Origin: an uncultured Planctomycetales bacterium
Lineage (GTDB): Bacteria; Omnitrophota; Gorgyraeia; Zapsychrales; Fredricksoniimonadaceae
Length of the DNA stretch: 64,000 nucleotides
NCBI GenBank assembly: GCA_964483785.1
Contig: CAZACW010000007.1
Coordinates: 375-64,374, forward strand
Reading direction: 5' to 3'
Below, one piece after another: positions 1 through 44,308 of this stretch. Made by a program: the position numbers and the translations under genes. The first letter of the stretch is position 1; every line of letters begins with the position of its first letter. Below the pieces are notes generated by a model that had not been told where the DNA came from, made no database searches, and worked only from the letters and a program-made list of their open reading frames with translations.

Positions 1-3000
1 GGTCCGGTGTCAATCTCCCTTGACGTCTCAGCCACAATTGTTTTTCATTCCAATTGTGCAAGGGCTGATAAACCCCTACATAGGTGTTATTTCGAGTGAT
101 GCTGACCATCGCCTGGTCTGCGCTTTCTTCAATGGATTGCTCATCTGTACGGTATTCTTGCCTGAAACTTCTCAATAATCTCCGATGCCCTCCTAATGGC
201 ACTAGAAATCTATTGTAAAACCACATGATCCTGGAGAATAAAATCACAAATGTAAAGATCCCGATGCCCAAATAGGTGCCCAATGCAAAAAGAGGAATCC
301 TGGGAAAATACAGCCCTTGATATCCGATATCGATATCATATGCAAAATGCCTCATTTCGGAGGAAAATCTCTCAATCATCTCCGCATAGCTGTGGGGTAT
401 TTCCCAGTCGAATACAACTTGATTGAACATCCGGGTCACCATTTCCTGCCAACCCTCGCGCGGCACATTTTGGCGGATTTCTGCCACTGTACGCTGCATC
501 ATAAGGGGGTCAATGGTTGTGTTCACGATATCCATGATTTGAGGCAGATCTAATTCTTCATCATGGTACCTGCCTTCACGCGCTGTAATGGGCGATTGGC
601 GGAATTCCTGGCTGGCAAAAATCTCTTGGGCCGCCCATCGGTATCCGATCCTTTCCATCTGTGCCCTAACGCGCAGATCCCCATCCGGACGCGGGTCCTT
701 GTACCGGGATAATTCGGAAGCGCTCATGGTCTCCAGGACCACGTCCATCAAGGGCGCGACTTTTTTGAGCTGATCTGGATTTTCTTTGGGATTTTGGGCA
801 TGCCGATTATACACCATCGTAAGAGATTCGCGCAGCACCCTTTTCCAGGCCGCGTCGTTGCGGTGGGCATCATTCCAAAGATCATAGATGTCCAGTTTGG
901 ATTCAATCAGGTCCTGAAAATCATCGTCCGCGTATCGATAAGCGCTTAATAGCTTCAGACGAAATGCCGGGTCCTTCATATTTTCCTCCAAGGTATTTCC
1001 AGGGACATATTTTAAATATTTCAACAACCGCACCACTTCCGATGGACCTGACCTTGCAATATAGCCTGCTTTTTCCGGAGCTTCGTTCATTTCATAATAA
1101 ATAATGGATGCGCCTTCCATGCTTGGAAGCCTGGAGAGATCATCGATAGGTTCCCCTTGAATGGCAGTTCCTGGAGGGACCCTGGCGATAAAATTCGAGG
1201 TGCGCGGAAGGGATCTTCCCAATAAGGTCGGGTCCTTAAACTCTGGAGCCTCCCAATTGGGTGAAGTCTCCAAAAAGCCTTTGGCATCCTCTCCCCAGCC
1301 GGTCAAACGTTCGCGGTTGCGCTCTTCAAATGGAAAAATCCAAAGCAAGTTTGGATTAAAGGGCCCCTTGTGCCAAATTTCGGGGACCAAATCAAGCTCA
1401 ATGGACCTTTCCACCTGACTGCGTTCCGTGTTCATCAAATTTTCGATTCTCTGCCCTTGAGGGACCGGCTTTTGGTCGTTCTGCAACGTAAATACATAGG
1501 TATTAAGTGCATTTAAATCCTGAGCCCATAAGATCGGCGACATAAAAGGCTGTTGAGGCGAGCGGTCAGGGGAAAAAGGAGGCGGCAAACTGTTCTGTAG
1601 AAACCGGTCCATGTGAATGGTCCCCAGTCTCCAGGCTGTCTCGGTCCTGATAACGCGCCTGACAGCCTCAGGCGTGACCATGGGATAAGGTGAATTGGCG
1701 TTGGGGACAAAACTCAAGATGGATTTGCCCTTAAAAATATCCGGATGGTCCATGAGGATATCCTCAATATAAAGATAGACCAAGGCGGTCAAATCCAACA
1801 GCCTGTCCTTGTCATTCACCAGCTCCAGCTTGGCTTCTTCATTGATTTCGATCAAAAAATGGAGGTTCGGCTTATCCCCCCAGGCCATCCGCCGAAAAAT
1901 TTCCTGCACAACATCCACCTTGCTGGAATGAAAGGTGATGTATTTTAAGGCGCTGATAAAACGCGGATCATTGGAAAATTCAGCATAAATGCTGTCTAAG
2001 GCCGCTATTCTCGCCTGCAAGGTTTCCCCTTCAATGGCCTGTCTCCGGTAATTCTCCAACATATTTTGCTGGCCCTCTCTCTGCTGGGTGGCCCATTGCT
2101 GTTGGGCGCTGTTGGGTACGCCTTGGCCCCAGAACGTCGACGGTAAGATGGACAAAGAGATGAAAATGACCCCTGCCATGGACAAGATCCTTTTCCTTAA
2201 ATGTGATAATTGGGCCTTGTCTGTGCGTTCCTGCAGCATGTTTGCGTTTCTGACGGGGTAGGTAGGCGGATCTAATAAGTACAAATAAACCAAGTCTTCC
2301 CTGGCCTTGGCCCTTAATTCAGCCACCTTCTTGGCCTTTTCCGTGATTTTAAGCCGATAAGAGGCCAAGTCTGCGGCCACGTCGCGATGTCCGGCCAAGA
2401 TCAAGGCATTTTGAGCATGGGCCAATTCCTGTTCTGCCTTAGGAATTTGATCCCTGACTAATGAATTATATTCATCTATGGTATCTCCAGCTTCTTGGGC
2501 GATGGCGATCCTTGTCCTTTCGATATCATCCAAGGAAGCCTGCGCATCTAAGGCCAATACCTTGCGTTTAATCCTGGCTGTGCCGTCATAAATGGGTAAT
2601 TCTCCGCTTAAGACCCCGAAAATTTTATGGATCACCGAACTGATGGATGTGGCGCCCGGGATGATATTATATTGCGCATTAGACAGATCCGCTGTGCCCA
2701 GCAATCCTGTGCCGTTTAATTTTGGATAAAACTCCAATCCTTGGATCCTGATGTCTCTTTCGACACCCCTTTGCGCAGTTAAGACCGACTGTAATCTGGT
2801 ATTAAGGCTTTGGGCACTCAAAATTTTAGCAATGAACGCTTGTTTGTCATTTCCCGCTATCGGTACCATTCTCTGGCTTAAATTGACAGTGGACAAAAGG
2901 GGGTTTTCCAAATGTTCCCATCCCTTGCCGGTCAAGTCATTGATCGGACGCATCAATTTTTGGGCCAGCGTTTCCAATCTGGCAATTTCACCGTCCACAT

Positions 3001-6000
3001 TATCAATATTGCCTTGAGATTGCTCTATTTGAAGGGTCGGGGTCGAGGTTAACCTGCCCTTCATCTGCGCCAAGGCCTTTTCCAAGTCTATCTTTAAACC
3101 CCTGGACAACAAAATCTCATCCTGCACTGCGGCCAATTCAATCAAGAACCTGTTGGTTTCATAACTTTGCTTGAGCAAGGCTGTGACCCAATCATAGTAT
3201 TTCACCTTGGTGGTGGTGGCATTGCTGTCGACCTTTTGGTCAACTTCACCATCCAATGCGCTGATCAAATTCCCTGTGGCCTGCACAGCGGCAGGGATGC
3301 TGGAACCGAGACTGCTTCCTCTGGTCACAGCCAGGTTAAAACCGCCATAACTGCCACTGATCCCGTAATTAAATTTACCATTAGAACTTATGCCGCCAAA
3401 AAGACTGACGGTCACGGCCGCCGGCAGGCCTTCCGAAGCAGCAGCCTTAAACATATCCACTTCTGTCCTGCCGCCGTTTAGCCGATAGGCAAGCACCGCA
3501 TCCGTCGCTGCTTCAGGAGAGAGCCGAAATCCTTGGAAAGAATTAGGGGCCCGAAGTGTAATGCGGATCGGCGGATTTTGTAAAATTGGAAAGGCCTGGT
3601 TGGCTGGCTGAGCCGTCGGGCTGCCAGCTGGCGACGGCAGGGTTGCTGCAGCCAGGGTTGCCGCTCGGGCCCCGCCTCCTGGGGGCCTTCCTCCGGCTCT
3701 TCTTGGCGGTGTAAGGGGTGGAGCCGGGGGTGGCGGAGGCGCTGCGTTATCTAGGTAAGGAACAGCTCTTTGAGCAATATGTTTGCGTTGGGATGGCGGC
3801 ACATACCCGGGTTGGGATTTAATGGCCCTCTGGACTTCAGGGGTTAAAAGAAACACACCAAACCCCCAATCCTTGCGCAGAATATGCTGAGGGTCATAGA
3901 CCATGACAACCAAGGATTGTTCGCTGGACATAACCGTCTTGGAATGCTGGGCAGGCCTGTGATCAATCACCTCCCCCAACAACGGGACCCCATCCAAGGT
4001 TTTGACCACCACCAGATCGCCGTTTTCAATGTTTCTGCGGATATCGGCAAAAATGTGGTATTTATCATCAATACCGACATCATTGGTCCCTAATTCAACG
4101 ACATCCGGCGCATAGGTGAAAAGAATGCCCCCCATTTGGATATTGTCTGACTCATCTTCCCCCGTTGAAAGGACGCGCAAATCTTCAGGGGCAAAGGTAT
4201 CCGCGGAACGGATCAATTCTTCCAGCATTTCCTTTTGCGCTAAAAATTCTCTTTCCCGGCTGTCTAATTCCAGCATTTCCGGGACCTCGGAATAGACAAT
4301 GCTGCCTTGCGGGGCCATCACAGCCTTTCTTTGCCTGACATCGATCAAGGCAGCCTTTACGGCAGCCAATTGGTCTTCGTAGGGCTTGGTCTCAACATGG
4401 GACATCCTCTGCCCGGCTTTGACAAAATCGCCTTGCTTGACAAAGTAGGTCACCTTGCCCGGAACCATCGCTGTAATGGGAAACTTAAACGTTCCAAGGA
4501 CCAGGCCCGTTATGCGCGGGATCCCGTCAATCCCTGAAAAATTCAACGCATCCCGGCGGTCCGGCGGGCGGACTTCCATAGACAGTCCCACTGGATCACC
4601 CAGCCTGATCGGCGAACGCTCAGGAAGCGTGATATGAAGACGAAGGAAATTTTTTCGATGTTCCAGGTCTCCGACCGTTTGTTCACGCAGGATAGGGTCA
4701 AAATAACTTTTAACATCGACCTGGTTTTGCCGGTTTTGATCATCCAGGGTCAAATTCAGATTACCGAAATACGTGATGCCCCGAGGTATTTCCAATTCAA
4801 CGCTAAACCGATCACTGGTGGGATGATAGCGGACAACGTGCCTTTCAGCATTGTGGTCTGTGTCTGACCTTTGCAAATCCTTGTCCGTGATATAGACCCC
4901 ATCATTAAGTCCGCCCCAGGATTCAATGTCCAAATCATACGGGGCCCTGACCACCCCTAACTCGGCTTCGATCTTTTTTTCAGCCAGTTCGCGGGACAAT
5001 TTTTGAAAATTCTCCCTGTATTGGGTCAATTTTTCCGCGGATAGGCTTTGGTTTCTAAAATCCACCTCCGCCTTTCTCCAGGCCTGCCTGGCCTCTTCGG
5101 TCCGGCCTTCCAGGATTTTGATTTGACGCCTCACCTCAAAATTATTGATCCTGAAAATAACTGAATTCTTTGCGTAGTGCATGATTTCAGGATGCAAATC
5201 ATAGACCTGGCCAGTCAGTCTGGGTAAAATTTGCAAAGTTAATTGAGTCAAGGTCCGGTGATCGGGGATATCAATATGTTGAGAACCCGCTTCAGGAGGA
5301 CCTCCAGCAACCAAGGTCACCGATGATCCTTCGTTGGGAATGGTCCTGCCGAATACGGCGGGTTGTAAAGCTTGGGCGTTGCCATCTCTGCGCTGGGTTA
5401 ACCATGGCGCTGCAGGCCGTCCGGGTTCCATCCCCATAGGAGGAATAACAATGGCGGCTCGGGCAGATCCTACTAAGCTGGGACCATCGCCGTTAGGCGG
5501 AGGCGGTTCTGGCATAGGTCTTGGTTCTTCAGGTGCTGGTATAAATTGTACATTGGGTGCATCGCCTGCAACGTTCAAGGACCCTGGACCTGGATTATCT
5601 CCCCTGGGTGAGGCTACAGGGGTGGGGGCATTTCTTGGTTTGTCTGTTGGTGTTGTTTGTGTAGTGCGTAGATCGCCTTGATCAGTCCTTGGCTCAATAG
5701 GTGCAGGTGGAGGCGGCGGTGGCGGGGCCGCCACTGTGGCAGTCCTTGCCCTATTCCTTTGATCTGCGAGCCGCTGTTGCCGCTCAGCCTGGGCCTTTTT
5801 TCTTTGATCAGCGAGCTGCCGTTGTCGCTCAGCCTGGGCCTTTCTGGTTTCTTCCGCTTTCCTCAGTCGTTCAGCTCTAGCGGCTGCTGCTTGAGCAATT
5901 TCTGCATCCTGCTTTGCCTTCCTTGCGATCTCTGCTTCCCTGGCAATTCTCTGTCGTTCGAGGGCTTGCGCACGCTGATCTCTCAAGGCATCAGCAGCCA

Positions 6001-7993
6001 ACTGGGCCCTCCTTGTTCTCTCTAACCGGGCATCGTCAGCGGCTTTGTCTGCCGCTCGTTGCGCGGTCAATCTTGCTTCTCTCATAATTTGAGCATGCTG
6101 GAGCATGGCTGTTGTGCGCACAGCTTCAAACGCATCAGCCCTTGCCTGGGCTGCAGCTGTATCAGCAGCTATTTGTGGCGCAGGTAGAGCAGCTGGGGCC
6201 GCCGGCGCAGCAGGCAAATCGGCAACTGGAGGGGCCTGTGACGCGGGTGGCGGAGGAGGCACAGGGACAGGCTCAGGCGGTGGCGGAACTGGTCCTCTGG
6301 CTATTGGTGGAGATCCACCTGGCACAACTACTTGACGGGGTGGCTCCTCTCGAGGAGGAGGAGCCGCGGCCAGTGGCGACCGAAGTACTGCCTCCCCTAC
6401 CAAAAATGCGATCGCTTTTTGATCTGATACAAGCGCGGTAATATTCATACGCCTATTTTCCAAAATAGGCGTATTACGAGTAACATTAAGTTGGGCTAAA
6501 TAACTGGGAAGCTTTTGATACAATTCTTGCCTGCGATTAACATTAGATAGCTCCGGGTTCTGTGCATTCATTATGTCCAGAACGATTTGACTCAAGGTGC
6601 TGCCTTGTCTAGGTGTGGCAAATACTTGGCCGCCAGTGGCGCTATAGTGTGTAATTGTATGTTGAGGGACTGCTTGAGCAAAGGTAGTTCCATGCGCTAC
6701 TGCGATTAAAGGTATGGCCAAGGCAACGGCCACGGCAAATTTGCCGGACAAGGATTTAAGAAGTGCGGGAGATAAAGGCAATTGGGCCGCGTCCGGCCGC
6801 AGGACCGGATTATTCATCAGCTGGGCCATGTCTCCCCCGATGGGCAAAAGCTCGACCTTGGCCACCCCGTAATCATGCGCTGCGGACAATTGGGCCGCGT
6901 CCAATTTGCCCCTGATGGCATCGAAGCTCGGCACCTGCAGGGTCTTCATGGCCAGGTCCGTTTTGCCGAAATTCAAACCACCGGAAAAATATTTCCGGGG
7001 CACCACCTGCTGGGTCAAGGGGTCCACGTCCTCGCGGATATAATTGTACGCGCCTACCTTATAAATACGCAGGTACTGCTTGTAAATGGCGTCCTTGGCG
7101 CCCTTGTCCACGTCGTCGATGCCGGCGATCTTTCTCTTATCTACATAAAAATTATTTAAAACGTTTCTTTTTAATGCGCGCTTAAACCAGGCCGCTAATA
7201 TGAGAGAATGGAAAACCTGGCGCACCTTGGCAAAGTTCTTGCCCTCATTCACTTCCTTTTCCAATTGCGGAAGGATCAAGTCCCGGGTTATGCCGGCGCT
7301 GATTTGATGGGCAATGCTTGCCGCCTCACCTTTTGGGGCCGTATGGTTTTTCGTGGCCAGATAATCTTCTTCCAGCATCACCTTTAAATGGGTCTCGCCG
7401 ATCAAGGCGGAATTGCCCATGTCATAAACAATGGCCTTGTCCGGCACAATCCAGACCTTGTTGTAGGTATTCACCGGCAGGTTGGTCGTGCCGAATTTGG
7501 CATAGGCCCTTTTGTAGACCTGGTCCCAGAATTTTTTACCCAATTCCGATTCAGGATAGGTCAGGGACGAGGCCAGTTGCTTTAAAAACTTGTCCTGGCG
7601 CAGTAAATCGTTGCCGGCATCGGTGAGCGCAAGCTCATCCGGGATGATGCGCCCGGATTCATACGGGGAAAGATTGACCCAGAGGTCTTCTTCGGGGATG
7701 GTGAGGCAGGTCAGAAAATACTTGATGAGGATGGAGGTCTCTTTCTGGTCAATGGCAAGGTGGCTGCCGGAATCGACCACAAAGTCAAACTCGAAAGGCT
7801 TGGCCGGGTACACGCGCATGCCGCGCAAAACAGGCAGGGAATAGGGCGTGGAAAGGTCTACGAAGTAATGGCCTGCGGGGAAAAACGGGGTGGGCTGGGC
7901 TTGGACGCTTTCCAGGCTGGTTTGAACCAAAAGAAAAGAAAGCAAACAGCAAATGGTCCGAAAAAACCTGGATTTTTTTATAACTATAGCCAT
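1..7993 (-). CDS. Giant secreted/envelope mosaic protein, 5' partial in window (ORF continues beyond position 1; at least ~2660 codons). Signal peptide; N-domain paralogous to ORF 31545..34103; TolA-like charged coiled coil; Pro-rich linkers; HlyD-like and TolC-like segments; C-terminal TM helices
   Basis: Not in the ORF track because there is no stop within the window. ATG at 7993-7991 follows an in-frame stop at 8003-8005. A manual scan of every + strand TTA/CTA/TCA at codon phase (pos mod 3 = 2) across 2..7990 found none, while the other two minus frames have stops in nearly every 60-nt line. The translation is protein-like throughout (MAIVIKKSRFFRTICCLLSFLLVQTSLESVQA...; ...KFGTTNLPVNTYNKVWIVPDKAIVY... 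closely matches the 852-aa ORF N-terminus). Confidence 0.75.
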   Translation of the reverse strand, partial: MAIVIKKSRFFRTICCLLSFLLVQTSLESVQAQPTPFFPAGHYFVDLSTPYSLPVLRGMRVYPAKPFEFDFVVDSGSHLAIDQKETSILIKYFLTCLTIPEEDLWVNLSPYESGRIIPDELALTDAGNDLLRQDKFLKQLASSLTYPESELGKKFWDQVYKRAYAKFGTTNLPVNTYNKVWIVPDKAIVYDMGNSALIGETHLKVMLEEDYLATKNHTAPKGEAASIAHQISAGITRDLILPQLEKEVNEGKNFAKVRQVFHSLILAAWFKRALKRNVLNNFYVDKRKIAGIDDVDKGAKDAIYKQYLRIYKVGAYNYIREDVDPLTQQVVPRKYFSGGLNFGKTDLAMKTLQVPSFDAIRGKLDAAQLSAAHDYGVAKVELLPIGGDMAQLMNNPVLRPDAAQLPLSPALLKSLSGKFAVAVALAIPLIAVAHGTTFAQAVPQHTITHYSATGGQVFATPRQGSTLSQIVLDIMNAQNPELSNVNRRQELYQKLPSYLAQLNVTRNTPILENRRMNITALVSDQKAIAFLVGEAVLRSPLAAAPPPREEPPRQVVVPGGSPPIARGPVPPPPEPVPVPPPPPASQAPPVADLPAAPAAPAALPAPQIAADTAAAQARADAFEAVRTTAMLQHAQIMREARLTAQRAADKAADDARLERTRRAQLAADALRDQRAQALERQRIAREAEIARKAKQDAEIAQAAAARAERLRKAEETRKAQAERQRQLADQRKKAQAERQQRLADQRNRARTATVAAPPPPPPPAPIEPRTDQGDLRTTQTTPTDKPRNAPTPVASPRGDNPGPGSLNVAGDAPNVQFIPAPEEPRPMPEPPPPNGDGPSLVGSARAAIVIPPMGMEPGRPAAPWLTQRRDGNAQALQPAVFGRTIPNEGSSVTLVAGGPPEAGSQHIDIPDHRTLTQLTLQILPRLTGQVYDLHPEIMHYAKNSVIFRINNFEVRRQIKILEGRTEEARQAWRKAEVDFRNQSLSAEKLTQYRENFQKLSRELAEKKIEAELGVVRAPYDLDIESWGGLNDGVYITDKDLQRSDTDHNAERHVVRYHPTSDRFSVELEIPRGITYFGNLNLTLDDQNRQNQVDVKSYFDPILREQTVGDLEHRKNFLRLHITLPERSPIRLGDPVGLSMEVRPPDRRDALNFSGIDGIPRITGLVLGTFKFPITAMVPGKVTYFVKQGDFVKAGQRMSHVETKPYEDQLAAVKAALIDVRQRKAVMAPQGSIVYSEVPEMLELDSREREFLAQKEMLEELIRSADTFAPEDLRVLSTGEDESDNIQMGGILFTYAPDVVELGTNDVGIDDKYHIFADIRRNIENGDLVVVKTLDGVPLLGEVIDHRPAQHSKTVMSSEQSLVVMVYDPQHILRKDWGFGVFLLTPEVQRAIKSQPGYVPPSQRKHIAQRAVPYLDNAAPPPPPAPPLTPPRRAGGRPPGGGARAATLAAATLPSPAGSPTAQPANQAFPILQNPPIRITLRAPNSFQGFRLSPEAATDAVLAYRLNGGRTEVDMFKAAASEGLPAAVTVSLFGGISSNGKFNYGISGSYGGFNLAVTRGSSLGSSIPAAVQATGNLISALDGEVDQKVDSNATTTKVKYYDWVTALLKQSYETNRFLIELAAVQDEILLSRGLKIDLEKALAQMKGRLTSTPTLQIEQSQGNIDNVDGEIARLETLAQKLMRPINDLTGKGWEHLENPLLSTVNLSQRMVPIAGNDKQAFIAKILSAQSLNTRLQSVLTAQRGVERDIRIQGLEFYPKLNGTGLLGTADLSNAQYNIIPGATSISSVIHKIFGVLSGELPIYDGTARIKRKVLALDAQASLDDIERTRIAIAQEAGDTIDEYNSLVRDQIPKAEQELAHAQNALILAGHRDVAADLASYRLKITEKAKKVAELRAKAREDLVYLYLLDPPTYPVRNANMLQERTDKAQLSHLRKRILSMAGVIFISLSILPSTFWGQGVPNSAQQQWATQQREGQQNMLENYRRQAIEGETLQARIAALDSIYAEFSNDPRFISALKYITFHSSKVDVVQEIFRRMAWGDKPNLHFLIEINEEAKLELVNDKDRLLDLTALVYLYIEDILMDHPDIFKGKSILSFVPNANSPYPMVTPEAVRRVIRTETAWRLGTIHMDRFLQNSLPPPFSPDRSPQQPFMSPILWAQDLNALNTYVFTLQNDQKPVPQGQRIENLMNTERSQVERSIELDLVPEIWHKGPFNPNLLWIFPFEERNRERLTGWGEDAKGFLETSPNWEAPEFKDPTLLGRSLPRTSNFIARVPPGTAIQGEPIDDLSRLPSMEGASIIYYEMNEAPEKAGYIARSGPSEVVRLLKYLKYVPGNTLEENMKDPAFRLKLLSAYRYADDDFQDLIESKLDIYDLWNDAHRNDAAWKRVLRESLTMVYNRHAQNPKENPDQLKKVAPLMDVVLETMSASELSRYKDPRPDGDLRVRAQMERIGYRWAAQEIFASQEFRQSPITAREGRYHDEELDLPQIMDIVNTTIDPLMMQRTVAEIRQNVPREGWQEMVTRMFNQVVFDWEIPHSYAEMIERFSSEMRHFAYDIDIGYQGLYFPRIPLFALGTYLGIGIFTFVILFSRIMWFYNRFLVPLGGHRRLLRSFRQEYRTDEQSIEESADQAMVSITRNNTYVGVYQPLHNWNEKQLWLRRQGRLTPD
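5758..5846 (-). repeat. Two tandem ~45-bp direct repeats inside the giant ORF, encoding a repeated charged heptad-like segment (KAQAERQ[RQ]QLADQR)
   Basis: tttgatctgcgagccgctgttgccgctcagcctgggcctttttt followed by tttgatcagcgagctgccgttgtcgctcagcctgggcctttct, read directly from the sequence. Confidence 0.7.
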
Positions 7994-8150
7994 GGCTGGA
8001 ACTTATTGCGTTTGTTTGGGTTTGATCCTTAGTATAGAGAATGGATGTTAAAACCGTGTTAGGGAGCAGTTAATCTTATATAAATACAATGGCTCTATAT
8101 AATATCGCGTAACCCGTTGGCTTGGAATAAGTTATCGGAATTTGACTGGG

Positions 8151-10089: not shown

Positions 10090-11219
10090 TTATTTCGCGT
10101 CCTTCACAGCTTCGGTGACCGCCTGCCTCATCGAAGAAAAGATCGTTAAGCCGGCCTGGGTCAAAATGACCTTGGCCTCTTTTTCATTGGTGCCGGTCAA
10201 GCGGATGATCAAAGGCACCGGGATCTGGATCTGCTTTAAGGCCGTGACAATCCCGTTGGCGATATCATCACAGCGGGTGATGCCGCCGAAAATATTGATG
10301 AGGATGACCTTGATGTCCTTGTTGCGCAAAATGATCTTAAGGGCATTCAAGACCTTTTCCGGGTTCGAGGAGCCGCCCACGTCCAAAAAATTGGCCGGCC
10401 TGCCGCCCAAAAGATTGACCGCGTCCATGGTGCCCATGGCCAGGCCCGCGCCGTTGACGATACAGCCCACATTGCCTTCCAGCTTCACAAAGCTTAAGCC
10501 CTTTTGCTTGGCCTCCAGCTCGTCGGCATCCTCGTATTTCATGTCCCTTAAGGCGGCCAGCTCCGGATGGCGGTCCAGGCCGTTGTCATCGATGATCACC
10601 TTGGCGTCCGCGGCAATGAGATTGCCTTCGCCGTTGATGACAAAGGGATTGATCTCAGCCAGGGAACAGTCTTTCTCGAAAAATAGTTTCAGCAGTTTCT
10701 GCAGAATGGAGGTGGCGCTTTTTTGCAGGCGCGCATCGGGGAATAATTGGGCCACAATCGGCGCCCAGCGCGCCTCATCCAGGTTTTCCCGGCCCTGCAT
10801 GTAAAACTTGATGATTTCTCCGGATGGGTCTTGGCGGTTTCCTCGATTTCCACCCCGCCCTCGGCCGAGGCGATCACCACCACATCGCCCTTGATATTGT
10901 CAATGGTGACCGCCAGATAGTATTCCTTGCGGATATCAATGGCCCGCGCGACCAGTAAGCGGTCAACGGCATAGCCCTTGATGTTGAGATTTTTGATGCG
11001 GTTGAATTCCAGGACAAGCTCTTTATCGTTGCCCACCACCTTGACCCCGCCGGCCTTGCCGCGGCCGCCGACTAAGACCTGGGCCTTGATCACCACCGGA
11101 TACCCGGTTTTCTGGGCAATGGCCACGGCTTCCTGCGGCGTTTGGGCCACATCTCCTTTTGCGATGGGGATATCGTAAGCGGCGAATAAATTCCTGGCTT
11201 GGTATTCGTGGATCTTCAT
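10090..11219 (-). pseudogene. sucC: Succinyl-CoA synthetase beta subunit, split by a 1-bp frameshift (ORFs 10689..11219 and 10090..10800)
   Basis: The N-terminal ORF matches SucC up to ...GGVEIEETAKTHPEK and then becomes nonsense. The C-terminal ORF resumes SucC homology (...LAEINPFV..., GNVGCIVNGAGLAMGTMD). The frames would be restored by one extra A in the run gagaaatcatcaag near 10800. Confidence 0.7.
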
Positions 11220-17510: not shown

Positions 17511-18360
17511 CTATTTCCCGAGGTTTCTTTGCCACCCTGCTGCCACGGCTGGTGTAGTTCCAAGGCTCTGATGGACGCGGCAGAAGTTATAATACATAAA
17601 GTGAAGGGCCACGGCACACGCTAAATTGTTCACCTTCTTTGAGAACGCATTGGTCAATCGAGTAAATCTTCTCATACTCATCCGCATTGTCAAGTTCTGT
17701 CTTTCAACAAAGTTTGTCGATATGTGGCGGCTCCCAGGGGTTCCGTTGATCTTGGTTTTCTCTGCACCAATGCAGACAGGCGGGCTGTATTTGCTTTTTC
17801 CTTCAAAGGCGTAATCAAGGTCGTAAATCTTATGGAGTTGGCGTAGTCAATCAGTGCCGAATACCTGGCCACAACATAGTGTTTCAGACCGTCTGTGGCC
17901 AGCTGTACCCTGTTTTTAAGGCTCCTGCCAGGTCTTGGATGAAAACCCCTTGCAGAAGTGGCATTCCTCTGCCCCCAATATACCATGAAGGCACCAGCTT
18001 GGTGTCCGCACATATAGCCGTCCAAGTCCATACATCCCCATAGCCAAATTGACCTCGCTTGTCTTTAGGGATATTCCGTTCTTTTGAGTAGCAGAATGAC
18101 CAGATTTCGTCGCATTGGAGGCGTTTACAGGGCAAATCCTTGAATATGCGGTCTTGCTATTCCGTACAGACCGCCCCCAGATCGCATAATAGCTTCAATA
18201 CTGTGCCTTTGGCGACGCCCGTCATACGGCAGGTGGCTCTAATGGAGTTCTCTTCCACTAAGGACGCTACTACCTGCTTACCCTTTTCTCTGGTCAATTG
18301 GTTCATGCTTCTACCCTCACTTTCTAAGGGCATCATACTTGAGCGGTCAAGTATTGTCAA
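17511..18360 (-). mobile_element. Degenerate IS1-family insertion sequence: InsA-like HTH ORF (18157..18360) plus an InsB-like transposase broken into 3 frames (17884..18135, 17690..18031, 17511..17693)
   Basis: InsA-like IRATCRMTGVAKGTVLKLL; InsB-like CDEIWSF..., ...ATDGLKHY..., ...YNFCRVHQSLG...; multiple frame changes indicate decay. Confidence 0.6.
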
Positions 18361-18399
18361 AAAAATATTGCCTTATTCAGTAAGAATCATGTTTGTTCT

Positions 18400-18993
18400 T
18401 TACGATCTTTTTATTTGGAAAGGCGCTACGAATTCTTTGGTAAGGACAGTTCTTTCATCACAATTTTCCCACAATTCTCGATGGGGAGCGCATTCACCGC
18501 TTCCATGATAGAGATGGACAAATACCCCTTCCTTTCTTGCGACCTCGACTGCTGGAAGGAAATCACTATCCCCAGTAATTAGAATAGCATGAGAAATCAT
18601 CCTCTTTGCAGAAAGCAACACCAAGTCCACTCCGAGGGAAATATCGACTCTTTTTTGTTCAAATATGGGCCTATTGTCTACTTTATTTATTCCCCTATAT
18701 TCCAATTTGCCATACCTAACATCAAATCGTGGCAATTGTTTCAAATTATGGAAAAAGGAAGAAGCTTTTGAAAATCGAACACTTTCTTCTTGCGTTGGAG
18801 GATTGCTCTGATATGGCAAACAATTATAATAATGGGTCCTTAATAAATCCATGTTGCCTGCGAGCGCTTCCGCCAATTTCCCAAGATGGATATTAGGCAA
18901 ACATAAGTCTTTCTTACCCACATAACTAAGATATGCCCCATCAATAAAAATGGCTACACGCGTTCCGATCATACACCCTCCTAAAGTTGTCAT
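18400..18993 (-). CDS. NYN-domain (LabA-like) protein
   Basis: ...AIFIDGAYL...ILITGDSDFLPAVEVARKEGVFVHLY is the NYN/LabA signature. Confidence 0.65.
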   Translation of the reverse strand: MTTLGGCMIGTRVAIFIDGAYLSYVGKKDLCLPNIHLGKLAEALAGNMDLLRTHYYNCLPYQSNPPTQEESVRFSKASSFFHNLKQLPRFDVRYGKLEYRGINKVDNRPIFEQKRVDISLGVDLVLLSAKRMISHAILITGDSDFLPAVEVARKEGVFVHLYHGSGECAPHRELWENCDERTVLTKEFVAPFQIKRS

Positions 18994-19172
18994 TTACAAA
19001 ATAAAACGCCTCCCAACACAAAGGAGGCGTTATGTTTTACCGCCATTCAAGATTGCTCTTGGACGGCGGGGATTATCTTTAGGATGTTTCGTCTGCTTTA
19101 AGTATGCACTACAAAATTAGTTCTGTCAAGCTTAAGCAAATAATAATCTATGGCACATGCCATTGTCAAGGA

Positions 19173-19391
19173 TTATTTTTCCCAGCGCTTTTGTGCGGCT
19201 TTTTGAGCAATTTCCCGACGACGTTTTGCAGAAAGGACTTCGGCCCTGGCCTTGCCCCCTTTAAGTCCCCCAAGACGGCCCAAGGCAACGGCGGCAGGAT
19301 TTTTTTCAGGACTTGCTTCTGCGGATTGCATGACCTGCCCAAGCATGGAAGCAGCTATTTGATTTTCGTCTTTGCTTGAACGCTTAGGCAT
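19173..19391 (-). CDS. Small basic KGG-motif protein
   Basis: GRLGGLKGGKARAEVLSAKRRREIAQKAAQKRW. Confidence 0.35.
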   Translation of the reverse strand: MPKRSSKDENQIAASMLGQVMQSAEASPEKNPAAVALGRLGGLKGGKARAEVLSAKRRREIAQKAAQKRWEK

Positions 19392-19465
19392 GGATGAATT
19401 GTATCACAATTTTTAAAATTTGCAAATTTAATTACCTGCCGAGACACCCCGTTTGATTATTGACA

Positions 19466-19494
19466 GCCCCTCTCACAAGAGTATAATAAATCGG
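19466..19494 (+). promoter_or_regulatory. Near-consensus sigma-70 promoter (TTGACA-16nt-TATAAT) upstream of the HicB-like gene
   Basis: ttgacagcccctctcacaagagtataat, followed by the RBS ggaggagg 6 nt before the ATG at 19532. Confidence 0.6.
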
Positions 19495-19531
19495 GTTATT
19501 AAACCAAGTTAAATACACGGGAGGAGGAAAT

Positions 19532-22116: not shown

Positions 22117-22180
22117 GAATTAAAATCTTTGAAGAAAATAAATGGCTTCATTTAGACGAGTTGCGCAACTGGCCGATGAA

Positions 22181-23448: not shown

Positions 23449-23455
23449 GGTTTAA

Positions 23456-23511
23456 TTTTACCGGGAATCCCGGTAAAAATCAAGTCAATTTTACCGGGAA
23501 TCCCGGTAAAA
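23456..23511. promoter_or_regulatory. Two copies of the 19-bp palindrome TTACCGGGAATCCCGGTAA, 32 bp apart, each flanked by T/A runs (operator pair or tandem bidirectional terminators)
   Basis: Seen in the sequence 8 bp upstream of the GHKL ATPase start and ~110 bp downstream of the AAA ATPase stop. Confidence 0.5.
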
Positions 23512-31544: not shown

Positions 31545-34103
31545 TTAAACCGGGCCTTGATGCTTAACGCCCAGAAAATTTTGAAGGTCTCCTAACGGCC
31601 GTATATTGATGATATCAAAATCAACGCCCTGAGATGACTGCCAAAGGGCCAGTTGGGCAGGGTCCATCTTTACCTGGATGGCCGCAGAGGCCTTGTCAAA
31701 GGCCATGACTTTGACGGGCCTCAAATCAATCCCGCCGTCGCGGCCGGTCATGGCGGCATTGACCATTTTCAAATAACCCGCCTCCACCCCTTCCATCACC
31801 TGGCGCTGTTTGGGGGCTTCGTTGTGCTCAATGCCTGAAAGGATGGTGATATTGACATCTTTTTTTAATTCTTCGAACTGCTTGCGCAGGGCGGGTGAAC
31901 TGTATTTCCCGGGGTTGTGATGGTCGTTTTCCACCAAATACAAATGATACCCGCCTAAGGCGGCCCTGAACCTGGCATTGTCCGCGACGATCATTTTTTG
32001 GATCTTGCCGTGGGGGTTCTGAGAATACGCCACGCGTTTATGCAAAAAAATGGTGCTGGGCACGACCACGTTGCGGACAAAATAGTACCTAAGCTGGTCC
32101 GCTTTCGCGGAGCCGCCCAACGGGGGCGCGATCTCATCGTAAAATAGGCCTTGGTATTTTCTGGTCTGGTGCGTCTGTAAAAAAGCAAGGCGAAACACCG
32201 TCGTCCCGTTGGAAAATGCAATGACATGATACGGCGCTTTAAGGCCATGGGCGGTCAAAAGCCCGTGCCTGGATAGAAAAAGCGCCAATTGTTCATCAAA
32301 TCTTTGGGAGGTGGTGAGGATATCGGCGAATTCATTGTATTCAAAAACGCCGATATTGTATTTGTCCTTCATGGCTTCAAACATGCCTCCAAAACTGCTG
32401 GTGGAACCTTCCAAAAGGCCCCTCACAAAAATTTTCAAAGGCTTGGACGGGTCATAAGCATCATTCAACAAATGGATGGTTTGGACATCCCGTAAAGCTT
32501 GGCGCACGGCATCGACGCGCTCGTCATGGGATTTGTGGGTCCCTGAGATTAAAACAGAGGACATCAGGCTGATGATCGGATGGATCACATACCCATGGGT
32601 GACCAAATCCTCGGCGATCTTTTTGCGCATGGCCTTAAACCATCCTGTATTGAAGCCCATGTATTTTCTTTGATATTGGTCTTCCCTGCCCAAGCTGATG
32701 GCTGTCCCCAAGGCGTTCATGAGCGGCTTCCATGTTTTGCGTTCTAAGGAAGGGACAAAGCCGATGCTTGGATCAAGGTCATTCCTGCGGACAAAGGCCT
32801 TCCATGCGTCTTTGACGCCGCCATATTGCGGCATAATGTGGTATTCGATCATACCCTTGGTCTCTTCTGTCAGCCATCGCACCGTGGCCCTGATTTTTTT
32901 TCGCTCGCCCTTGGTTTGGGCCTCGGCTCTTCTTAACTCTGCGGTGATCAGCTGGTCGTGCACATAGTCATCCGGACGAAAGTCTCCGGGTTTAAAATCC
33001 TCAACGGTGCGCATGGCCGCATCCACTTTAAGAGCAAACCCTCCCGAGAAATACTTGCGGGGCACAGCTTGCAGGGTGACTGGATCCGGCTCTTCCTTGA
33101 TATAGTTGTAAACACCTTTCTTGAAAGCCTGCAGGTACCGATGGTAAATAACCATCACAACCCCGGGGGTTGTGATGGTTATTCCTTGGATTTTGTTCTG
33201 GTTGGCATATACGGCAGTCAGTATGCTGTCCTTGATCTTCTTCTTGTACCAGGTGGCTAAAATCAGGCTGTTGTACACCTGTCTTAGCTTAGCAAAATTG
33301 GCTCCGGTATTGACTTCTTTCGTCAATTCAGGAATGACAATCTCACGGATCATTTGCGAGCCCAGCATATGAATATTGGAACCCCTCAAAATGGGGACAG
33401 TCCCTTGGGAAACAATGTTAACGGGACAGTCCCCATTTTGAAGGACCCCAACATCCCCGTGCTTGGCTTGCGATAAATAATCCTCTTCCAGCATAACCTT
33501 TAATGTTGACTCAACAACATACGCCGTTCCTGCTTTCGCGTTTTCATACACTACAGCCTTATCAGGCACAATCCAGACCTTGTTGAAGGTATTGACCGCT
33601 ATATCGGTTGTACCGAATCTCTTGGCCGCTTCAGCGTAGACCTTCTTCCAAAACTTCTTCCCTGTCTCCCCTTCCGGGTAAATCAAGCTGGCCGTGATTT
33701 GCTTGAGCATATAATCTTCAATAAGCAAATCGCGGCCCATCTCGGTCCGGCCGAAGGCCGGCGGGATGATCCTGTTTTGCTCATAAGGGCTTAGATTGAC
33801 CCAAAGGTCATCTTCAGGGATGGTCAGGCTTGCCAGGAAATATTTAATGAGCTTGGCAATGTCCTTGATTTCAGCGGGATTCCGGCCTGCGTTATTTAAA
33901 ATGAATTCCAAACGCAAGGGGTTGTCCGGATGGATCTTGATGCCTTTAAAGATGGGCGGATCAAATTCCGGGCTTAAGGCGATCCTTCGGCCGGGTTCTG
34001 GCAGCTGCAGGCAATTTTGCGCAAAAAGGGCCGGGTCCGAGGGACAAAGGAAGGAAATGGTTATGTTCAAAAAGATAAAAACTTTAATGAATTTATCATT
34101 CAT
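31545..34103 (-). CDS. Large secreted hypothetical protein (852 aa) whose N-terminal ~320 aa are paralogous to the giant ORF N-domain; contains an in-frame PR1 palindrome
   Basis: Signal-peptide-like N-terminus. Shared blocks VNLSPYE..RIIP, GKKFW, KFGTT..VNT.NKVWIVPDKA.VY and KVMLEEDYL align with the translation of 7993..7000. PR1 copy 4 encodes ITTPGVVMV in frame. Confidence 0.6.
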   Translation of the reverse strand: MNDKFIKVFIFLNITISFLCPSDPALFAQNCLQLPEPGRRIALSPEFDPPIFKGIKIHPDNPLRLEFILNNAGRNPAEIKDIAKLIKYFLASLTIPEDDLWVNLSPYEQNRIIPPAFGRTEMGRDLLIEDYMLKQITASLIYPEGETGKKFWKKVYAEAAKRFGTTDIAVNTFNKVWIVPDKAVVYENAKAGTAYVVESTLKVMLEEDYLSQAKHGDVGVLQNGDCPVNIVSQGTVPILRGSNIHMLGSQMIREIVIPELTKEVNTGANFAKLRQVYNSLILATWYKKKIKDSILTAVYANQNKIQGITITTPGVVMVIYHRYLQAFKKGVYNYIKEEPDPVTLQAVPRKYFSGGFALKVDAAMRTVEDFKPGDFRPDDYVHDQLITAELRRAEAQTKGERKKIRATVRWLTEETKGMIEYHIMPQYGGVKDAWKAFVRRNDLDPSIGFVPSLERKTWKPLMNALGTAISLGREDQYQRKYMGFNTGWFKAMRKKIAEDLVTHGYVIHPIISLMSSVLISGTHKSHDERVDAVRQALRDVQTIHLLNDAYDPSKPLKIFVRGLLEGSTSSFGGMFEAMKDKYNIGVFEYNEFADILTTSQRFDEQLALFLSRHGLLTAHGLKAPYHVIAFSNGTTVFRLAFLQTHQTRKYQGLFYDEIAPPLGGSAKADQLRYYFVRNVVVPSTIFLHKRVAYSQNPHGKIQKMIVADNARFRAALGGYHLYLVENDHHNPGKYSSPALRKQFEELKKDVNITILSGIEHNEAPKQRQVMEGVEAGYLKMVNAAMTGRDGGIDLRPVKVMAFDKASAAIQVKMDPAQLALWQSSQGVDFDIINIRPLGDLQNFLGVKHQGPV
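31908..31924. repeat. PR1 half-site (CCCGGGGTTGTGATGGT) inside the 852-aa ORF
   Basis: One-arm match; on the minus strand it encodes DHHNPG. Confidence 0.5.
33152..33180. repeat. PR1 palindrome copy 4, inside the coding sequence (in frame)
   Basis: Perfect palindrome; it replaces about 9 codons (DVDKGAKDA in the giant ORF paralog) with TITTPGVVMV. Confidence 0.9.
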
Positions 34104-44254: not shown

Positions 44255-44267
44255 TTAAGTCGGAATA

Positions 44268-44296: not shown

Positions 44297-44308
44297 TTCT
44301 AACCTACG

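What the first reader, a model, noticed from the sequence alone, without database searches (positions are those of the whole stretch)
1..7993. Giant (>2,660 codon, still open) mosaic ORF missing from the ORF track
The minus-strand frame beginning at ATG 7993 has no stop codon anywhere down to position 2. I checked every + strand TTA/CTA/TCA for codon phase; the other two minus frames are riddled with stops. It is absent from the supplied track only because it lacks an in-window stop. The product is at least 2,660 aa and continues off the window, with the following order: signal peptide; an N-domain shared with the 852-aa ORF at 31545..34103; a long Ala/Arg/Glu/Gln-rich TolA-like coiled coil with 45-bp tandem repeats; poly-Pro tracts (PPPPPPPAP, APPPPPAPP); a coiled-coil plus barrel-sandwich stretch resembling HlyD-type periplasmic adaptors (...VTYFVKQGDFVKAGQRMSHVE...); a region resembling TolC-type outer-membrane factor repeats (...SLFGGISSNGKFNYGISGSYGGFNLAVT...; ...LEKALAQMKGRLTST...); and hydrophobic helices at the C-terminal side. 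An adaptor-like and an OMF-like segment inside one giant secreted polypeptide would be unusual. Giant multi-domain envelope proteins of this size are rare in bacteria and poorly characterised.
Basis: partly seen in the sequence, partly recalled or inferred. Interest (0 to 1): 0.85.

Follow-up and report, generated by a model that had tools for sequence, protein, structure and literature searches.

The report
Giant fused TolC-plus-adaptor envelope protein
The open frame is a real, window-truncated gene for a ~3,400-residue envelope protein of an uncultured Omnitrophota bacterium; it joins two efflux-pump adaptor modules and one complete TolC-like outer-membrane channel unit in a single chain, and belongs to a large undescribed protein family with the same conserved domain at each end.

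Summary
The minus frame from ATG 7993 to position 2 has 0 stops in 2,664 codons, against 72-145 in the other five frames (chance ~1e-55). The gene is real: about 25 collinear ~3,000-aa orthologues exist in independent Omnitrophota assemblies, one in the same gene order. About 735 residues lie beyond the window edge. Architecture: signal peptide; a ~360-aa N-domain with no known fold; a low-complexity Pro/coiled-coil spacer; two homologous adaptor (MFP) modules; a Pro linker; one complete TolC-type protomer; a ~610-aa unknown domain; a strong membrane helix. Two adaptors per TolC unit reproduces the 6:3 ratio of classical tripartite pumps if the protein trimerises, so I read it as a single-chain, membrane-anchored trans-envelope duct or strut. 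No energising domain and no conserved partner transporter was found, so function is inferred. New here: the N-domain and a ~60-aa C-terminal module bracket highly variable middles in over 1,500 large Omnitrophota proteins, including the window's 852-aa ORF. Neither module has a Pfam or NCBIfam model or a description in the searchable literature. The membrane topology is unresolved because of internal signal-peptide-like segments.

The parts
2..7993 (-). Giant ORF, 5'-complete and cut at its 3' end by the window edge (2,664 of an estimated ~3,400 codons)
   Evidence: No stop in the frame. Collinear with ~3,000-aa orthologues, with residue 2664 aligning to about residue 2250 of those orthologues.
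7895..7993 (-). N-terminal Sec-type signal peptide (aa 1-33, ...SVQA|QP)
   Evidence: It has a K/R n-region, a ~13-aa h-region and an AxA motif. The same layout is seen in nearly all 120 family members inspected.
6794..7894 (-). Omnitrophota-specific N-terminal 'bookend' domain (aa ~34-400)
6695..6751 (-). Internal signal-peptide-like hydrophobic segment (aa 415-433, ...TFA|QA)
   Evidence: Mean Kyte-Doolittle hydropathy 2.1. Orthologues show a K/R n-region, a ~15-aa h-region and AxA at the same place. Predicted membrane insertion is only marginal.
5261..6694 (-). Low-complexity spacer: Pro-rich tracts flanking an Ala/Arg/Glu/Gln-rich coiled coil (aa 434-911); includes the 45-bp repeat at 5757-5843
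   Evidence: Composition per 100 aa. Weak sub-threshold TolA hit. Tandem repeat of 1.9 copies. Its length varies among orthologues.
4577..5260 (-). Periplasmic adaptor (MFP/HlyD-type) module 1 (aa ~912-1139): lipoyl half, alpha-hairpin, lipoyl half, beta-barrel
   Evidence: AF2 model residues 13-240. Profile hits to EmrA and CusB. Homologous to module 2 (hhalign probability 95.7%, E=8.8e-9).
3848..4513 (-). Periplasmic adaptor module 2 (aa ~1161-1382); contains VTYFVKQGDFVKAGQRMSHVE
   Evidence: AF2 model residues 262-483. Profile hits to MacA (1.9e-11) and MexA (5e-7). Foldseek matches MexA and MacA at E~1e-7, TM-score 0.63-0.66. HlyD_3 and HlyD_D23 are found in 10 and 9 of 15 orthologue regions.
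3530..3796 (-). Pro/Ala-rich disordered linker (aa ~1400-1488)
   Evidence: Composition. pLDDT below 50 in the model.
2273..3529 (-). Complete TolC-type outer-membrane-factor protomer (aa ~1489-1907)
   Evidence: In the AF2 model, beta-strands plus 64-65-residue helices occur twice. Foldseek matches TolC, ST50, OprM, CusC, VceC and TOprJ1 at E 1e-11 to 1e-9 over ~450 columns, TM-score 0.55-0.69. Pfam OEP is found in 14 of 15 orthologue regions; the window copy scores 18.2 bits, E=0.002.
2132..2188 (-). Second internal SP-like or marginal TM segment (aa 1936-1954, preceded by RKR)
   Evidence: It is SP-like (MPLAA|QQ and similar) in close orthologues and absent in distant ones.
293..2131 (-). 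Conserved domain of unknown function (aa 1955-2567)
   Evidence: It aligns with orthologues at 23-27% identity. No Pfam or PDB sequence match.
236..292 (-). Strongly hydrophobic transmembrane helix (aa 2568-2586) followed by an Arg-rich cluster
   Evidence: Mean Kyte-Doolittle hydropathy 2.21. Insertion energy sum -1.5, and orthologues conserve it with 3-6 K/R residues after it.
2..235 (-). Start of the predicted cytoplasmic segment (aa 2587-2664); the rest lies outside the window (about 735 aa: two more TM helices, an unknown domain and the C-terminal bookend module)
   Evidence: Orthologue alignment.
31545..34103 (-). 852-aa paralogue: the shortest complete member of the same N-domain / C-terminal-module family
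   Evidence: N-domain at aa 28-377 (E=1e-157) and C-terminal module at aa 789-849 (E=1.6e-19). No Pfam or NCBIfam family.

Best explanation
SHOWN: This is a genuine chromosomal gene of an uncultured Omnitrophota bacterium, complete at its start and cut by the window edge, encoding about 3,400 aa. Its parts, in order, are: a Sec signal peptide; a ~360-aa phylum-specific N-terminal domain with no recognisable fold; a variable Pro-rich/coiled-coil spacer; two homologous periplasmic-adaptor (MFP) modules; a Pro-rich linker; one complete TolC-type outer-membrane-factor protomer; a ~610-aa conserved unknown domain; and a strong transmembrane helix. By orthology, it continues with a ~300-aa segment, two more helices, a ~500-aa unknown domain and a conserved ~60-aa C-terminal module.

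INFERRED: The chain trimerises through its TolC-like part into an outer-membrane channel-tunnel. The two adaptor modules per chain form the six-membered adaptor ring under it, giving the 6:3 adaptor:OMF ratio of AcrAB-TolC and MacAB-TolC (from my own knowledge). The C-terminal helices anchor the assembly in the inner membrane. The result would be a covalently linked, envelope-spanning duct or strut. It carries no recognisable energising module, so it either docks on a separately encoded transporter, conducts passively, or mainly ties the two membranes together. The body evolves much faster than its neighbours, as expected for an exposed envelope protein.

The confidence of 0.55 is for the whole statement: about 0.9 for the shown architecture and about 0.45 for the inferred duct mechanism.
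For: Reality of the gene: 0 stops against 72-145 in the other frames. It is collinear with ~25 orthologues from independent ENA, NCBI and JGI assemblies, one of them seen on 15 contigs. P0003 sits in the same DLH-TPR-sucCD-Mrp-giant gene order.

Adaptor modules: PDB profile hits to MacA (1.9e-11), an RND MFP (2.7e-8), EmrA (1.7e-7) and MexA (5e-7). The AF2 model shows two beta/hairpin/beta plus beta-barrel units. Foldseek matches MexA and MacA at E~1e-7 with TM-score 0.63-0.66. The two modules are homologous to each other (hhalign probability 95.7%).

OMF: Foldseek aligns a full protomer to TolC, OprM, CusC and others at E~1e-11. Pfam OEP is found in 14 of 15 orthologue regions, best 6.3e-13.

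Anchoring: the conserved strong helix carries its K/R cluster on the C-terminal side, and the downstream helix pair has the complementary charge pattern.

Fast-evolving body: neighbours are 61-88% identical and the N-domain 62-67%, but the body is 26-29% identical or undetectable.

Lineage: hits are named Candidatus Omnitrophica/Omnitrophota.
Against: The window copy has no Pfam domain above threshold, and its first OMF hairpin tip lacks the GGF-type motif that most orthologues conserve. Inter-domain geometry is not predicted (pTM 0.40), and no oligomer was modelled, so the trimer and the 6:3 ring are inference. No ATPase, RND or MFS module and no conserved Walker A motif was found. No transporter gene is conserved next to the orthologues. 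Topology is ambiguous: two or three signal-peptide-like segments occur in series, and a naive positive-inside reading would put the MFP/OMF part in the cytoplasm. The 3' end and the C-terminal module of this particular gene were not seen.
Confidence: 0.55

Rival explanations
1. It is cargo, not machine. Like the other members of the N-domain / C-terminal-module family, the whole protein is a substrate of a dedicated export or surface-anchoring route. Its TolC/adaptor-like middle would then act outside the producer, for example by inserting into or bridging to the envelope of a host or prey cell.
For: 118 of 140 family proteins share both end modules around unrelated middles, and the orthologues of the giant carry both. 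Family members begin with signal peptides, and most show no later TM helix. The body diverges very fast. Omnitrophota are inferred to be host-dependent or predatory, and their giant proteins are proposed to act on target cells (PMC10066038; 10.1101/2023.11.21.568195).
Against: The giant and its orthologues have conserved strong TM helices with a coherent charge pattern, which argues for retention in the producer's inner membrane. No secretion apparatus is linked to these genes in the loci examined. No function is known for either end module.
Confidence: 0.15
2. It is a structural tether. The protein does not transport anything; it uses TolC-like and adaptor-like folds plus long spacers as a rigid strut that links the outer membrane, the periplasm and the inner membrane in an ultra-small cell.
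For: No energising domain and no partner transporter was found. A long TolA-like low-complexity spacer is present. The gene sits among housekeeping genes. The window copy's OMF tip motif is degenerate.
Against: Full OMF and adaptor folds are kept across orthologues that are only 20-30% identical, including the two-adaptors-per-OMF arrangement. That looks like selection on a duct assembly. The genomes also have ordinary OEP/RND genes the adaptors could serve.
Confidence: 0.2
3. It is an artefact: a mis-assembly, or several adjacent genes fused by sequencing errors into one apparent ORF.
For: The neighbouring sucC carries a frameshift around 10779-10818, so the sequence is either not error-free or holds pseudogenes. 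The spacer is low-complexity and contains a 45-bp repeat. The internal signal-peptide-like segments look like the starts of separate pre-proteins.
Against: The same continuous architecture, including the internal SP-like segments, occurs in ~25 orthologues from independent assemblies and sequencing technologies. A 2,664-codon open frame cannot arise by chance. Errors usually break frames rather than join them.
Confidence: 0.03
4. Non-canonical cytoplasmic placement. The N-domain is exported, the segment at aa 415-433 acts as a stop-transfer, and the adaptor/TolC-like region lies in the cytoplasm between two membrane helices, doing something unrelated to efflux ducts.
For: This is the topology given by simple rules for the window protein: a cleaved signal peptide, then helices at 415, 1936 (RKR before it) and 2568 (Arg cluster after it).
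Against: An OMF beta-barrel needs the periplasmic BAM route (established knowledge). The 415 segment has its positive charges on the wrong side for a stop-transfer and is only marginally hydrophobic. The 1936 segment is not conserved as a helix in distant orthologues.
Confidence: 0.05

Closest known systems
TolC / OprM / CusC outer-membrane factors (Pfam OEP, PF02321)
   Same: The predicted protomer has the same fold over its whole length: beta-strands plus long antiparallel helices, twice (Foldseek E~1e-11, TM-score 0.55-0.69). Orthologues pass the Pfam OEP threshold.
   Different: It is not a free-standing ~450-aa protein with its own signal or lipobox. It is embedded at residues ~1489-1907 of a ~3,400-aa chain, between adaptor modules and a membrane-anchored C-terminal half. 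It is only 12-16% identical to solved OMFs, and the window copy falls below the Pfam threshold. An exhaustive HMMER search with this region found no ordinary TolC.
Periplasmic adaptor proteins (MFP: MexA, AcrA, MacA, EmrA, HlyD)
   Same: Each module has a lipoyl (barrel-sandwich) domain split by an alpha-hairpin, followed by a beta-barrel domain.
   Different: Two modules occur in tandem in one chain, covalently joined to the OMF. No membrane-proximal domain is apparent. No adjacent transporter gene is present.
TriABC-OpmH of Pseudomonas aeruginosa (two different adaptors, TriA and TriB; PDB 6vej was solved as a fused TriA-TriB construct)
   Same: Two non-identical adaptor units per OMF protomer, which work when linked in one chain. 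6vej is among the best profile hits (2.7e-8).
   Different: In TriABC the natural genes are separate and the fusion was engineered (my own knowledge). Here the tandem is natural and extends to the OMF itself.
TolA
   Same: A long Ala/Glu/Lys/Arg/Gln-rich helical spacer, placed where it could span the periplasm.
   Different: It scores 21.6 bits against a cutoff of 59.45. There is no TolA N-terminal anchor or C-terminal domain arrangement, so the resemblance is compositional only.
Omnitrophota giant proteins (Archaeovorins and Dockerin-type giants; long-protein catalogue)
   Same: Same phylum, an unusually long ORF, and signal-peptide-plus-TM architecture (10.1101/2023.11.21.568195; 10.64898/2026.06.07.730766; PMC10066038).
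   Different: It is ten to forty times shorter. It has no C39/S8 peptidase, dockerin or TSP3 domains. TolC and HlyD are not mentioned in those papers, and none of their 'N-terminal' passages describes this domain.
Terminal sorting or trafficking domains of large secreted proteins (TPS domain of two-partner secretion, T9SS C-terminal domain, TANFOR N-domain of Bacteroidetes polymorphic toxins, conserved N/C regions of MARTX toxins)
   Same: Conserved modules at the ends of very large proteins whose middle or cargo varies freely. The N-module sits directly behind a signal peptide (PMC7073777 and PMC5422565 for the comparators).
   Different: There is no sequence or fold similarity to any of them. 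The cargo here is mostly cytoplasmic-type enzymes. No dedicated transporter has been identified.

Membership tests
Outer membrane factor (TolC family, PF02321 OEP) | Sequence match to the OEP repeat model above Pfam's gathering score | tested here: inconclusive
   The window copy scores 18.2 bits (E=0.002) against a cutoff of 22, and gives no hit when the whole protein is scanned. Orthologues pass: 43.5, 30.5 and 24.5 bits, and 14 of 15 regions match at E<=0.01.
Outer membrane factor (TolC family, PF02321 OEP) | Protomer fold: a two-fold repeat of beta-strands plus long alpha-hairpins covering ~430 residues | tested here: met
   AF2 model. Foldseek matches TolC, OprM, CusC, VceC and others at E 1e-11 to 1e-9 over ~450 columns, TM-score up to 0.69. 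The internal repeat is not detectable by sequence (hhalign E=0.27).
Outer membrane factor (TolC family, PF02321 OEP) | Homotrimer forming a 12-stranded beta-barrel and an alpha-barrel tunnel | not testable with these tools
Outer membrane factor (TolC family, PF02321 OEP) | Free-standing outer-membrane protein with its own signal peptide or lipobox | tested here: not met
   It is embedded at aa ~1489-1907 of the giant chain.
Periplasmic adaptor / membrane fusion protein (HlyD, AcrA, MacA type) | Lipoyl/barrel-sandwich domain interrupted by an alpha-helical hairpin | tested here: met
   Present twice in the AF2 model. PDB profile hits to MacA (1.9e-11), EmrA (1.7e-7) and MexA (5e-7). HlyD_3, HlyD_D23 and Biotin_lipoyl are found in 9-10 of 15 orthologue regions.
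Periplasmic adaptor / membrane fusion protein (HlyD, AcrA, MacA type) | Beta-barrel domain following the lipoyl domain | tested here: met
   Strand-rich units at model residues 155-240 and 391-483. The MexA three-domain crystal chain aligns over ~250 columns, TM-score 0.63-0.66.
Periplasmic adaptor / membrane fusion protein (HlyD, AcrA, MacA type) | Encoded next to, and working with, an inner-membrane ABC, RND or MFS transporter | tested here: not met
   No transporter gene is conserved beside the window gene or four orthologues. The OEP+ACR_tran pair in L003 lies 6 kb away and is not conserved.
TolA | Match to the TolA equivalog model (TIGR02794) at or above its cutoff | tested here: not met
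   21.6 bits against a cutoff of 59.45, confined to the low-complexity stretch at aa 573-748.
Omnitrophota N-domain / C-terminal-module ('bookend') family (defined here) | Signal peptide followed at about residue 35 by the conserved ~360-aa N-domain (motifs KYFL..LT.PE.DLWVNLSPYE, FNKVWIVP, PRKYFSGG) | tested here: met
   HMM E=1.6e-168 at aa 30-395. 46% identity to the 852-aa ORF. Invariant motifs are listed in A1.
Omnitrophota N-domain / C-terminal-module ('bookend') family (defined here) | Conserved ~60-aa module (GGIDxN ... GFxPVIxxIxP ... FLG) ending about 10 residues from the C-terminus | not testable with these tools
   The window ends before the 3' end, and the contig could not be extended. 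The module is present in the full-length orthologues and in the window's 852-aa ORF.
Archaeovorin / Dockerin-type giant proteins of Omnitrophota | Tens of thousands of residues, with C39 or S8 peptidase near the N-terminus or dockerin/TSP3 repeats | tested here: not met
   About 3,400 aa, with no such Pfam domains. Features taken from 10.1101/2023.11.21.568195.
Known terminal secretion domains (TPS domain, T9SS CTD, autotransporter beta-domain) | Match to the corresponding Pfam/NCBIfam models or folds | tested here: not met

The most novel reading that the evidence does not exclude
The N-terminal domain and the C-terminal GGIDxN...PVIxNIxP module would be the two recognition or anchoring handles of a phylum-wide, so far undescribed sorting pathway. 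Through it Omnitrophota would export or display hundreds of giant, cargo-swapping proteins, many loaded with cytoplasmic-type enzymes. The TolC-plus-two-adaptor giant would be either that pathway's built-in envelope conduit or a cargo that builds a channel into a partner cell. The serial internal signal-peptide-like segments would then mark stepwise membrane threading or processing of a polyprotein.
Probability: 0.2. Interest if true: 0.85.

Novelty: new variant of a known kind. Interest (0 to 1): 0.66.

Why it matters
Tripartite efflux and type I secretion systems are always described as three separate proteins assembled at a 3:6 OMF:adaptor ratio. A natural chain that hard-wires two adaptors to one TolC unit and to its own membrane anchor would be an independent, evolutionary confirmation of that ratio. 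It would also give a simplified model for how such ducts assemble, and it raises the question of what powers or gates a duct with no recognisable motor. Separately, the shared end modules give a simple sequence handle for cataloguing and comparing the otherwise unannotatable large proteins of Omnitrophota: over 1,500 proteins, with multiple copies in several genomes. They also turn an open question into a testable one: are these enzyme-laden giants exported effectors or membrane-tethered cytoplasmic assemblies?

Tried and rejected
(1) Extending the contig failed. An exact 40-mer scan of genome contigs and of metagenome contigs, and an exact look-up of the adjacent Mrp protein, all found nothing, so the stop was not reached.

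(2) The word-indexed search with aa 900-2664 returned nothing, probably because Pro/Ala-rich words filled the candidate list. I replaced it with the exhaustive HMMER search of aa 1500-2664.

(3) TolA membership was rejected because the score is far below the cutoff.

(4) I suspected a LysM-like peptidoglycan-binding domain after the internal SP-like segment, from the look of the sequence. Seven segments gave no Pfam hit even at E<=10, so I dropped it.

(5) An energising module in the C-terminal half was not found: no Pfam hit, no PDB sequence hit, and no conserved Walker A motif.

(7) A conserved partner gene was not found; orthologues sit in unrelated housekeeping contexts.

(8) The profile search with the C-terminal module returned only unnamed proteins, mostly short ones on short contigs, and gave no name or new context.

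(9) Literature searches for the N-domain, for a TolC/HlyD fusion in Omnitrophota, or for natural OMF-adaptor fusions found nothing relevant.

(10) The internal sequence repeat of the OMF was not detectable.
Full report
OBSERVATION. Translating window 2-7993 on the minus strand gives 2,664 codons with no stop. The same stretch holds 127 and 145 stops in the other two minus frames and 72-117 in the plus frames. From base composition, the chance of an open frame this long is about 1e-55. An in-frame stop lies four codons upstream of ATG 7993, and the first residues (MAIVIKKSRFFR...) align with orthologues from their residue 1, so the start is correct. The frame is still open at the window edge, which is why it is missing from ORF lists. 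The 45-bp repeat is a single array of 1.9 copies at 5757-5843. The N-domain is shared with the 852-aa ORF at 46% identity over 330 aa, E=3e-90. That ORF is on the minus strand, and these are the only two copies in the window.

IS THE GENE REAL? A database search found 1,503 proteins. The top ~28 are ~3,000-aa proteins from Candidatus Omnitrophota assemblies held by ENA, NCBI, JGI and Logan. BLAST shows they are collinear with the window protein: ~65-73% identity in the N-domain and 20-35% in the body. Window residue 2664 falls at about residue 2250 of ~3,000, so roughly 735 residues are missing and the full length is about 3,400 aa. One orthologue (P0003, 3,009 aa) lies in the same DLH-TPR-sucC-sucD-Mrp-giant gene order, followed by a CbiA/DRTGG gene and the nuo operon (window neighbours). 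Another (P0009) was seen on 15 contigs. This rules out a chimeric assembly as the origin of the architecture. I could not extend the contig: exact-match scans and an exact protein look-up found nothing. An exhaustive HMMER search of 1.84 billion cluster representatives with residues 1500-2664 found only 27 clusters, all giants or their fragments, and no ordinary TolC. The orthologous group is therefore small and lineage-restricted.

ANATOMY. The window protein itself has no Pfam hit at E<=1, and only weak NCBIfam hits to TolA (21.6 bits, cutoff 59.45) and to HlyD/RND adaptors (E~0.06). Family-level evidence is much stronger.

- Orthologues pass Pfam's own thresholds for OEP (43.5, 30.5 and 24.5 bits against 22) and HlyD_3 (28.4 against 22.2). 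Across 15 orthologue regions, OEP is found in 14, HlyD_3 in 10 and HlyD_D23 in 9; the window copy reaches 18.2 bits for OEP.
- A profile of residues 900-1960 plus 14 orthologues matches solved MacA (1.9e-11), an RND adaptor (2.7e-8), EmrA (1.7e-7) and MexA (5e-7), and weakly an OprJ-like OMF (0.004).
- An AlphaFold2 model of this region has mean pLDDT 66, with domain cores at 80-92 and a low pTM of 0.40, as expected for beads on a string. It shows two units of beta / alpha-hairpin / beta plus beta-barrel (model residues 13-240 and 262-483). A disordered Pro/Ala linker follows, then a unit with beta-strands and 64-65-residue helices occurring twice.
- Foldseek aligns that last unit with whole protomers of TolC, ST50, OprM, CusC, SilC, VceC, MtrE and TOprJ1 (E 1e-11 to 1e-8, ~450 columns, TM-score 0.55-0.69 on the target). 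It aligns the first units with MexA and MacA (E~1e-7, TM-score 0.63-0.66).
- The two adaptor units are homologous to each other (hhalign probability 95.7%, E=8.8e-9 over 128 columns).

So each chain carries two adaptor modules and one OMF protomer. Downstream lie a ~610-aa conserved region with no Pfam or PDB relative and a strongly hydrophobic helix at 2568-2586. The stretch between the N-domain and the adaptors (aa 434-911) is Pro-rich and Ala/Arg/Glu/Gln-rich and varies in length among orthologues. It is a spacer, and 'TolA-like' describes its composition only.

The domain heads over 1,500 large proteins whose other domains include methyltransferases, kinases, UbiB, M48 peptidase, Snf2 helicases, radical SAM, GNAT and glycolytic enzymes. 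A scan of species-representative genomes confirmed at least 572 loci. All are Omnitrophota MAGs, though some submitters labelled theirs 'uncultured Planctomycetales', and several genomes have multiple copies. Nearly all members start with a classical signal peptide.

Aligning full-length orthologues exposed a second conserved element at the extreme C-terminus. The same ~60-aa module (GGIDxN ... GFxPVIxxIxP ... FLG) ends most of the unrelated N-domain proteins, and also the window's 852-aa ORF. With HMMs built from both modules, 131 of 140 proteins have the N-domain (median start at residue 35) and 121 have the C-terminal module (median end 10 residues from the terminus); 118 have both. The exceptions include proteins that NCBI labels partial, and the window giant. 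A profile search with the C-terminal module returned only unnamed proteins, mostly short ones on short contigs. The three papers on Omnitrophota giant proteins do not mention TolC or HlyD, and their 'N-terminal' passages do not describe this domain; I did not search them for the C-terminal module. Further literature searches found nothing on either module. The window giant is therefore one specialised member of a large 'bookend' family, and the 852-aa ORF is its shortest complete member.

TOPOLOGY, AN UNRESOLVED POINT. Besides the N-terminal signal peptide, the giant and its orthologues carry a second segment directly after the N-domain that looks like a signal peptide: a K/R n-region, a ~15-residue h-region, then AxA. 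In one orthologue it looks like a lipobox. The window protein and its closest relatives have a third such segment right after the OMF (...MPLAA|QQ and similar). On a simple insertion-energy sum these segments are marginal. The helix at 2568 and a downstream pair in the orthologues are strong and have a coherent charge pattern: K/R after the first, before the second and after the third. The scale values were recalled from Hessa et al. 2005, so this is approximate.

Two consecutive N-in/C-out signals cannot both be used. Either the internal one is simply translocated, so everything from residue 34 to 2567 is periplasmic, or the N-domain stays in the cytoplasm and the internal signal exports the rest. 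Both readings place the adaptor and TolC parts in the periplasm, where such folds work. A naive reading of the window protein alone would put them in the cytoplasm, which I consider unlikely because an OMF barrel needs the periplasmic assembly route (established knowledge). I could not settle on which side the N-domain and the C-terminal module lie.

HOW IT MOST LIKELY WORKS. Shown: the gene, its lineage, the order of its parts, two adaptors plus one OMF per chain, and conserved membrane helices. Inferred: TolC-family proteins function as trimers, and adaptors as hexamers beneath them (my knowledge of AcrAB-TolC and MacAB-TolC). A trimer of this chain would supply exactly three OMF protomers and six adaptor modules. 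The ~90-residue Pro-rich linker is long enough to let the adaptors fold back under the tunnel, and the C-terminal helices would fix the assembly to the inner membrane. I therefore read it as a single-chain, envelope-spanning duct.

What it conducts and what drives it are unknown. No ATPase, RND or MFS module and no conserved Walker A motif was found. No transporter gene is conserved next to orthologues, which sit among suc/Mrp/nuo genes, inside a kdp operon, or between thrS and infC. A purely structural tether, or a role as exported cargo like other family members, remains possible. The body of the protein is only 26-29% identical, or undetectable, between genomes whose flanking genes are 61-88% identical and whose N-domains are 62-67% identical. 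That fits an exposed, fast-diversifying envelope component.

COMPARISON WITH WHAT IS KNOWN. It has the folds of the OMF and adaptor families but fails the contextual criteria of both: neither part is free-standing, and there is no partner transporter. It is not TolA. It does not fit the described Archaeovorin or Dockerin-type giants. The nearest functional parallel for two different adaptors per OMF is TriABC, which was solved as an engineered TriA-TriB fusion (PDB 6vej, hit). A comprehensive review of tripartite systems mentions no natural adaptor-OMF fusion in the portion held. The end modules resemble, in position only, the TPS domain, the T9SS C-terminal domain, the TANFOR domain and the MARTX conserved regions.

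VERDICT. It is refined by three findings: two adaptor modules, placement in Omnitrophota, and the bookend family. The specific orthologues already sit in public databases as 'TolC family protein' or unnamed entries, so the protein is not unseen. But the architecture, the 2:1 arrangement and the family-wide end modules appear undescribed. I rate it a new variant of a known kind, with interest 0.66.

Noticed in passing
window 31545-34103 (-): This 852-aa ORF is the shortest complete member found of the signal peptide + N-domain + C-terminal GGIDxN module family, with only ~410 aa of unannotated middle. It lies directly downstream of pheS-pheT. It could serve as a minimal model for studying the two end modules.
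   Followed up: partly
window 6695-6751 and 2132-2188 (-); orthologues P0001-P0028: Internal segments that look like complete signal peptides (K/R n-region, short h-region, AxA; a lipobox-like LAASAGLC in P0025) follow the N-domain and, in close relatives, the OMF. It is as if pre-proteins had been fused without losing their signals. Whether they are used, cleaved or simply translocated is unknown.
   Followed up: partly
window 10090-11219 (-), frame switch around 10779-10818: sucC is split into two overlapping ORFs by a frameshift; the orthologous loci have a single 376-377-aa gene. It is either a sequencing error or a pseudogene, which is a reason to check read support in this region.
   Followed up: partly
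window 61202-62926 (+): A 574-aa protein combines a pilus-type secretin (T2SS-T3SS_pil_N + Secretin) with a C-terminal TonB_C domain, which is an unusual fusion.
   Followed up: no
L003 8001-17261; L004 8001-17045: Orthologues of the giant sit inside otherwise conserved housekeeping arrays: between kdpC and kdpD in one genome, and between thrS and infC-rpmI-rplT-pheST in another. This suggests the gene relocates or inserts freely.
   Followed up: no
window 1-8000 compared with L001 and L002: There is a strong rate contrast within one gene. The N-domain is 62-67% identical and the neighbouring genes 61-88%, but the adaptor, OMF and C-domain body is 26-29% identical, or undetectable, between the same genomes.
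   Followed up: yes
window ~18000-20000, 22000-24000 and 44000-46000: Three low-GC stretches (0.40-0.43 against ~0.55 elsewhere). The second carries an AAA_14/DUF4143 ATPase gene (23619-24767), so these may be acquired islands. A 491-aa ORF at 20641-22116 has no Pfam match.
   Followed up: no
L001 1-2526 and 28687-29030; L002 1-6037: Other very long genes flank the orthologues: 2,613-aa and 2,180-aa products with faint Glug/Peptidase_M26_N hits, and a 4,524-aa product with a Glucan_synthase hit. Large genes seem to cluster in these genomes.
   Followed up: no
Genome-contig loci L006, L011, L013 and others: Many MAGs that carry the Omnitrophota-specific N-domain are titled 'uncultured Planctomycetales bacterium' by their submitters. 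This is probably a taxonomic label problem in those records.
   Followed up: no
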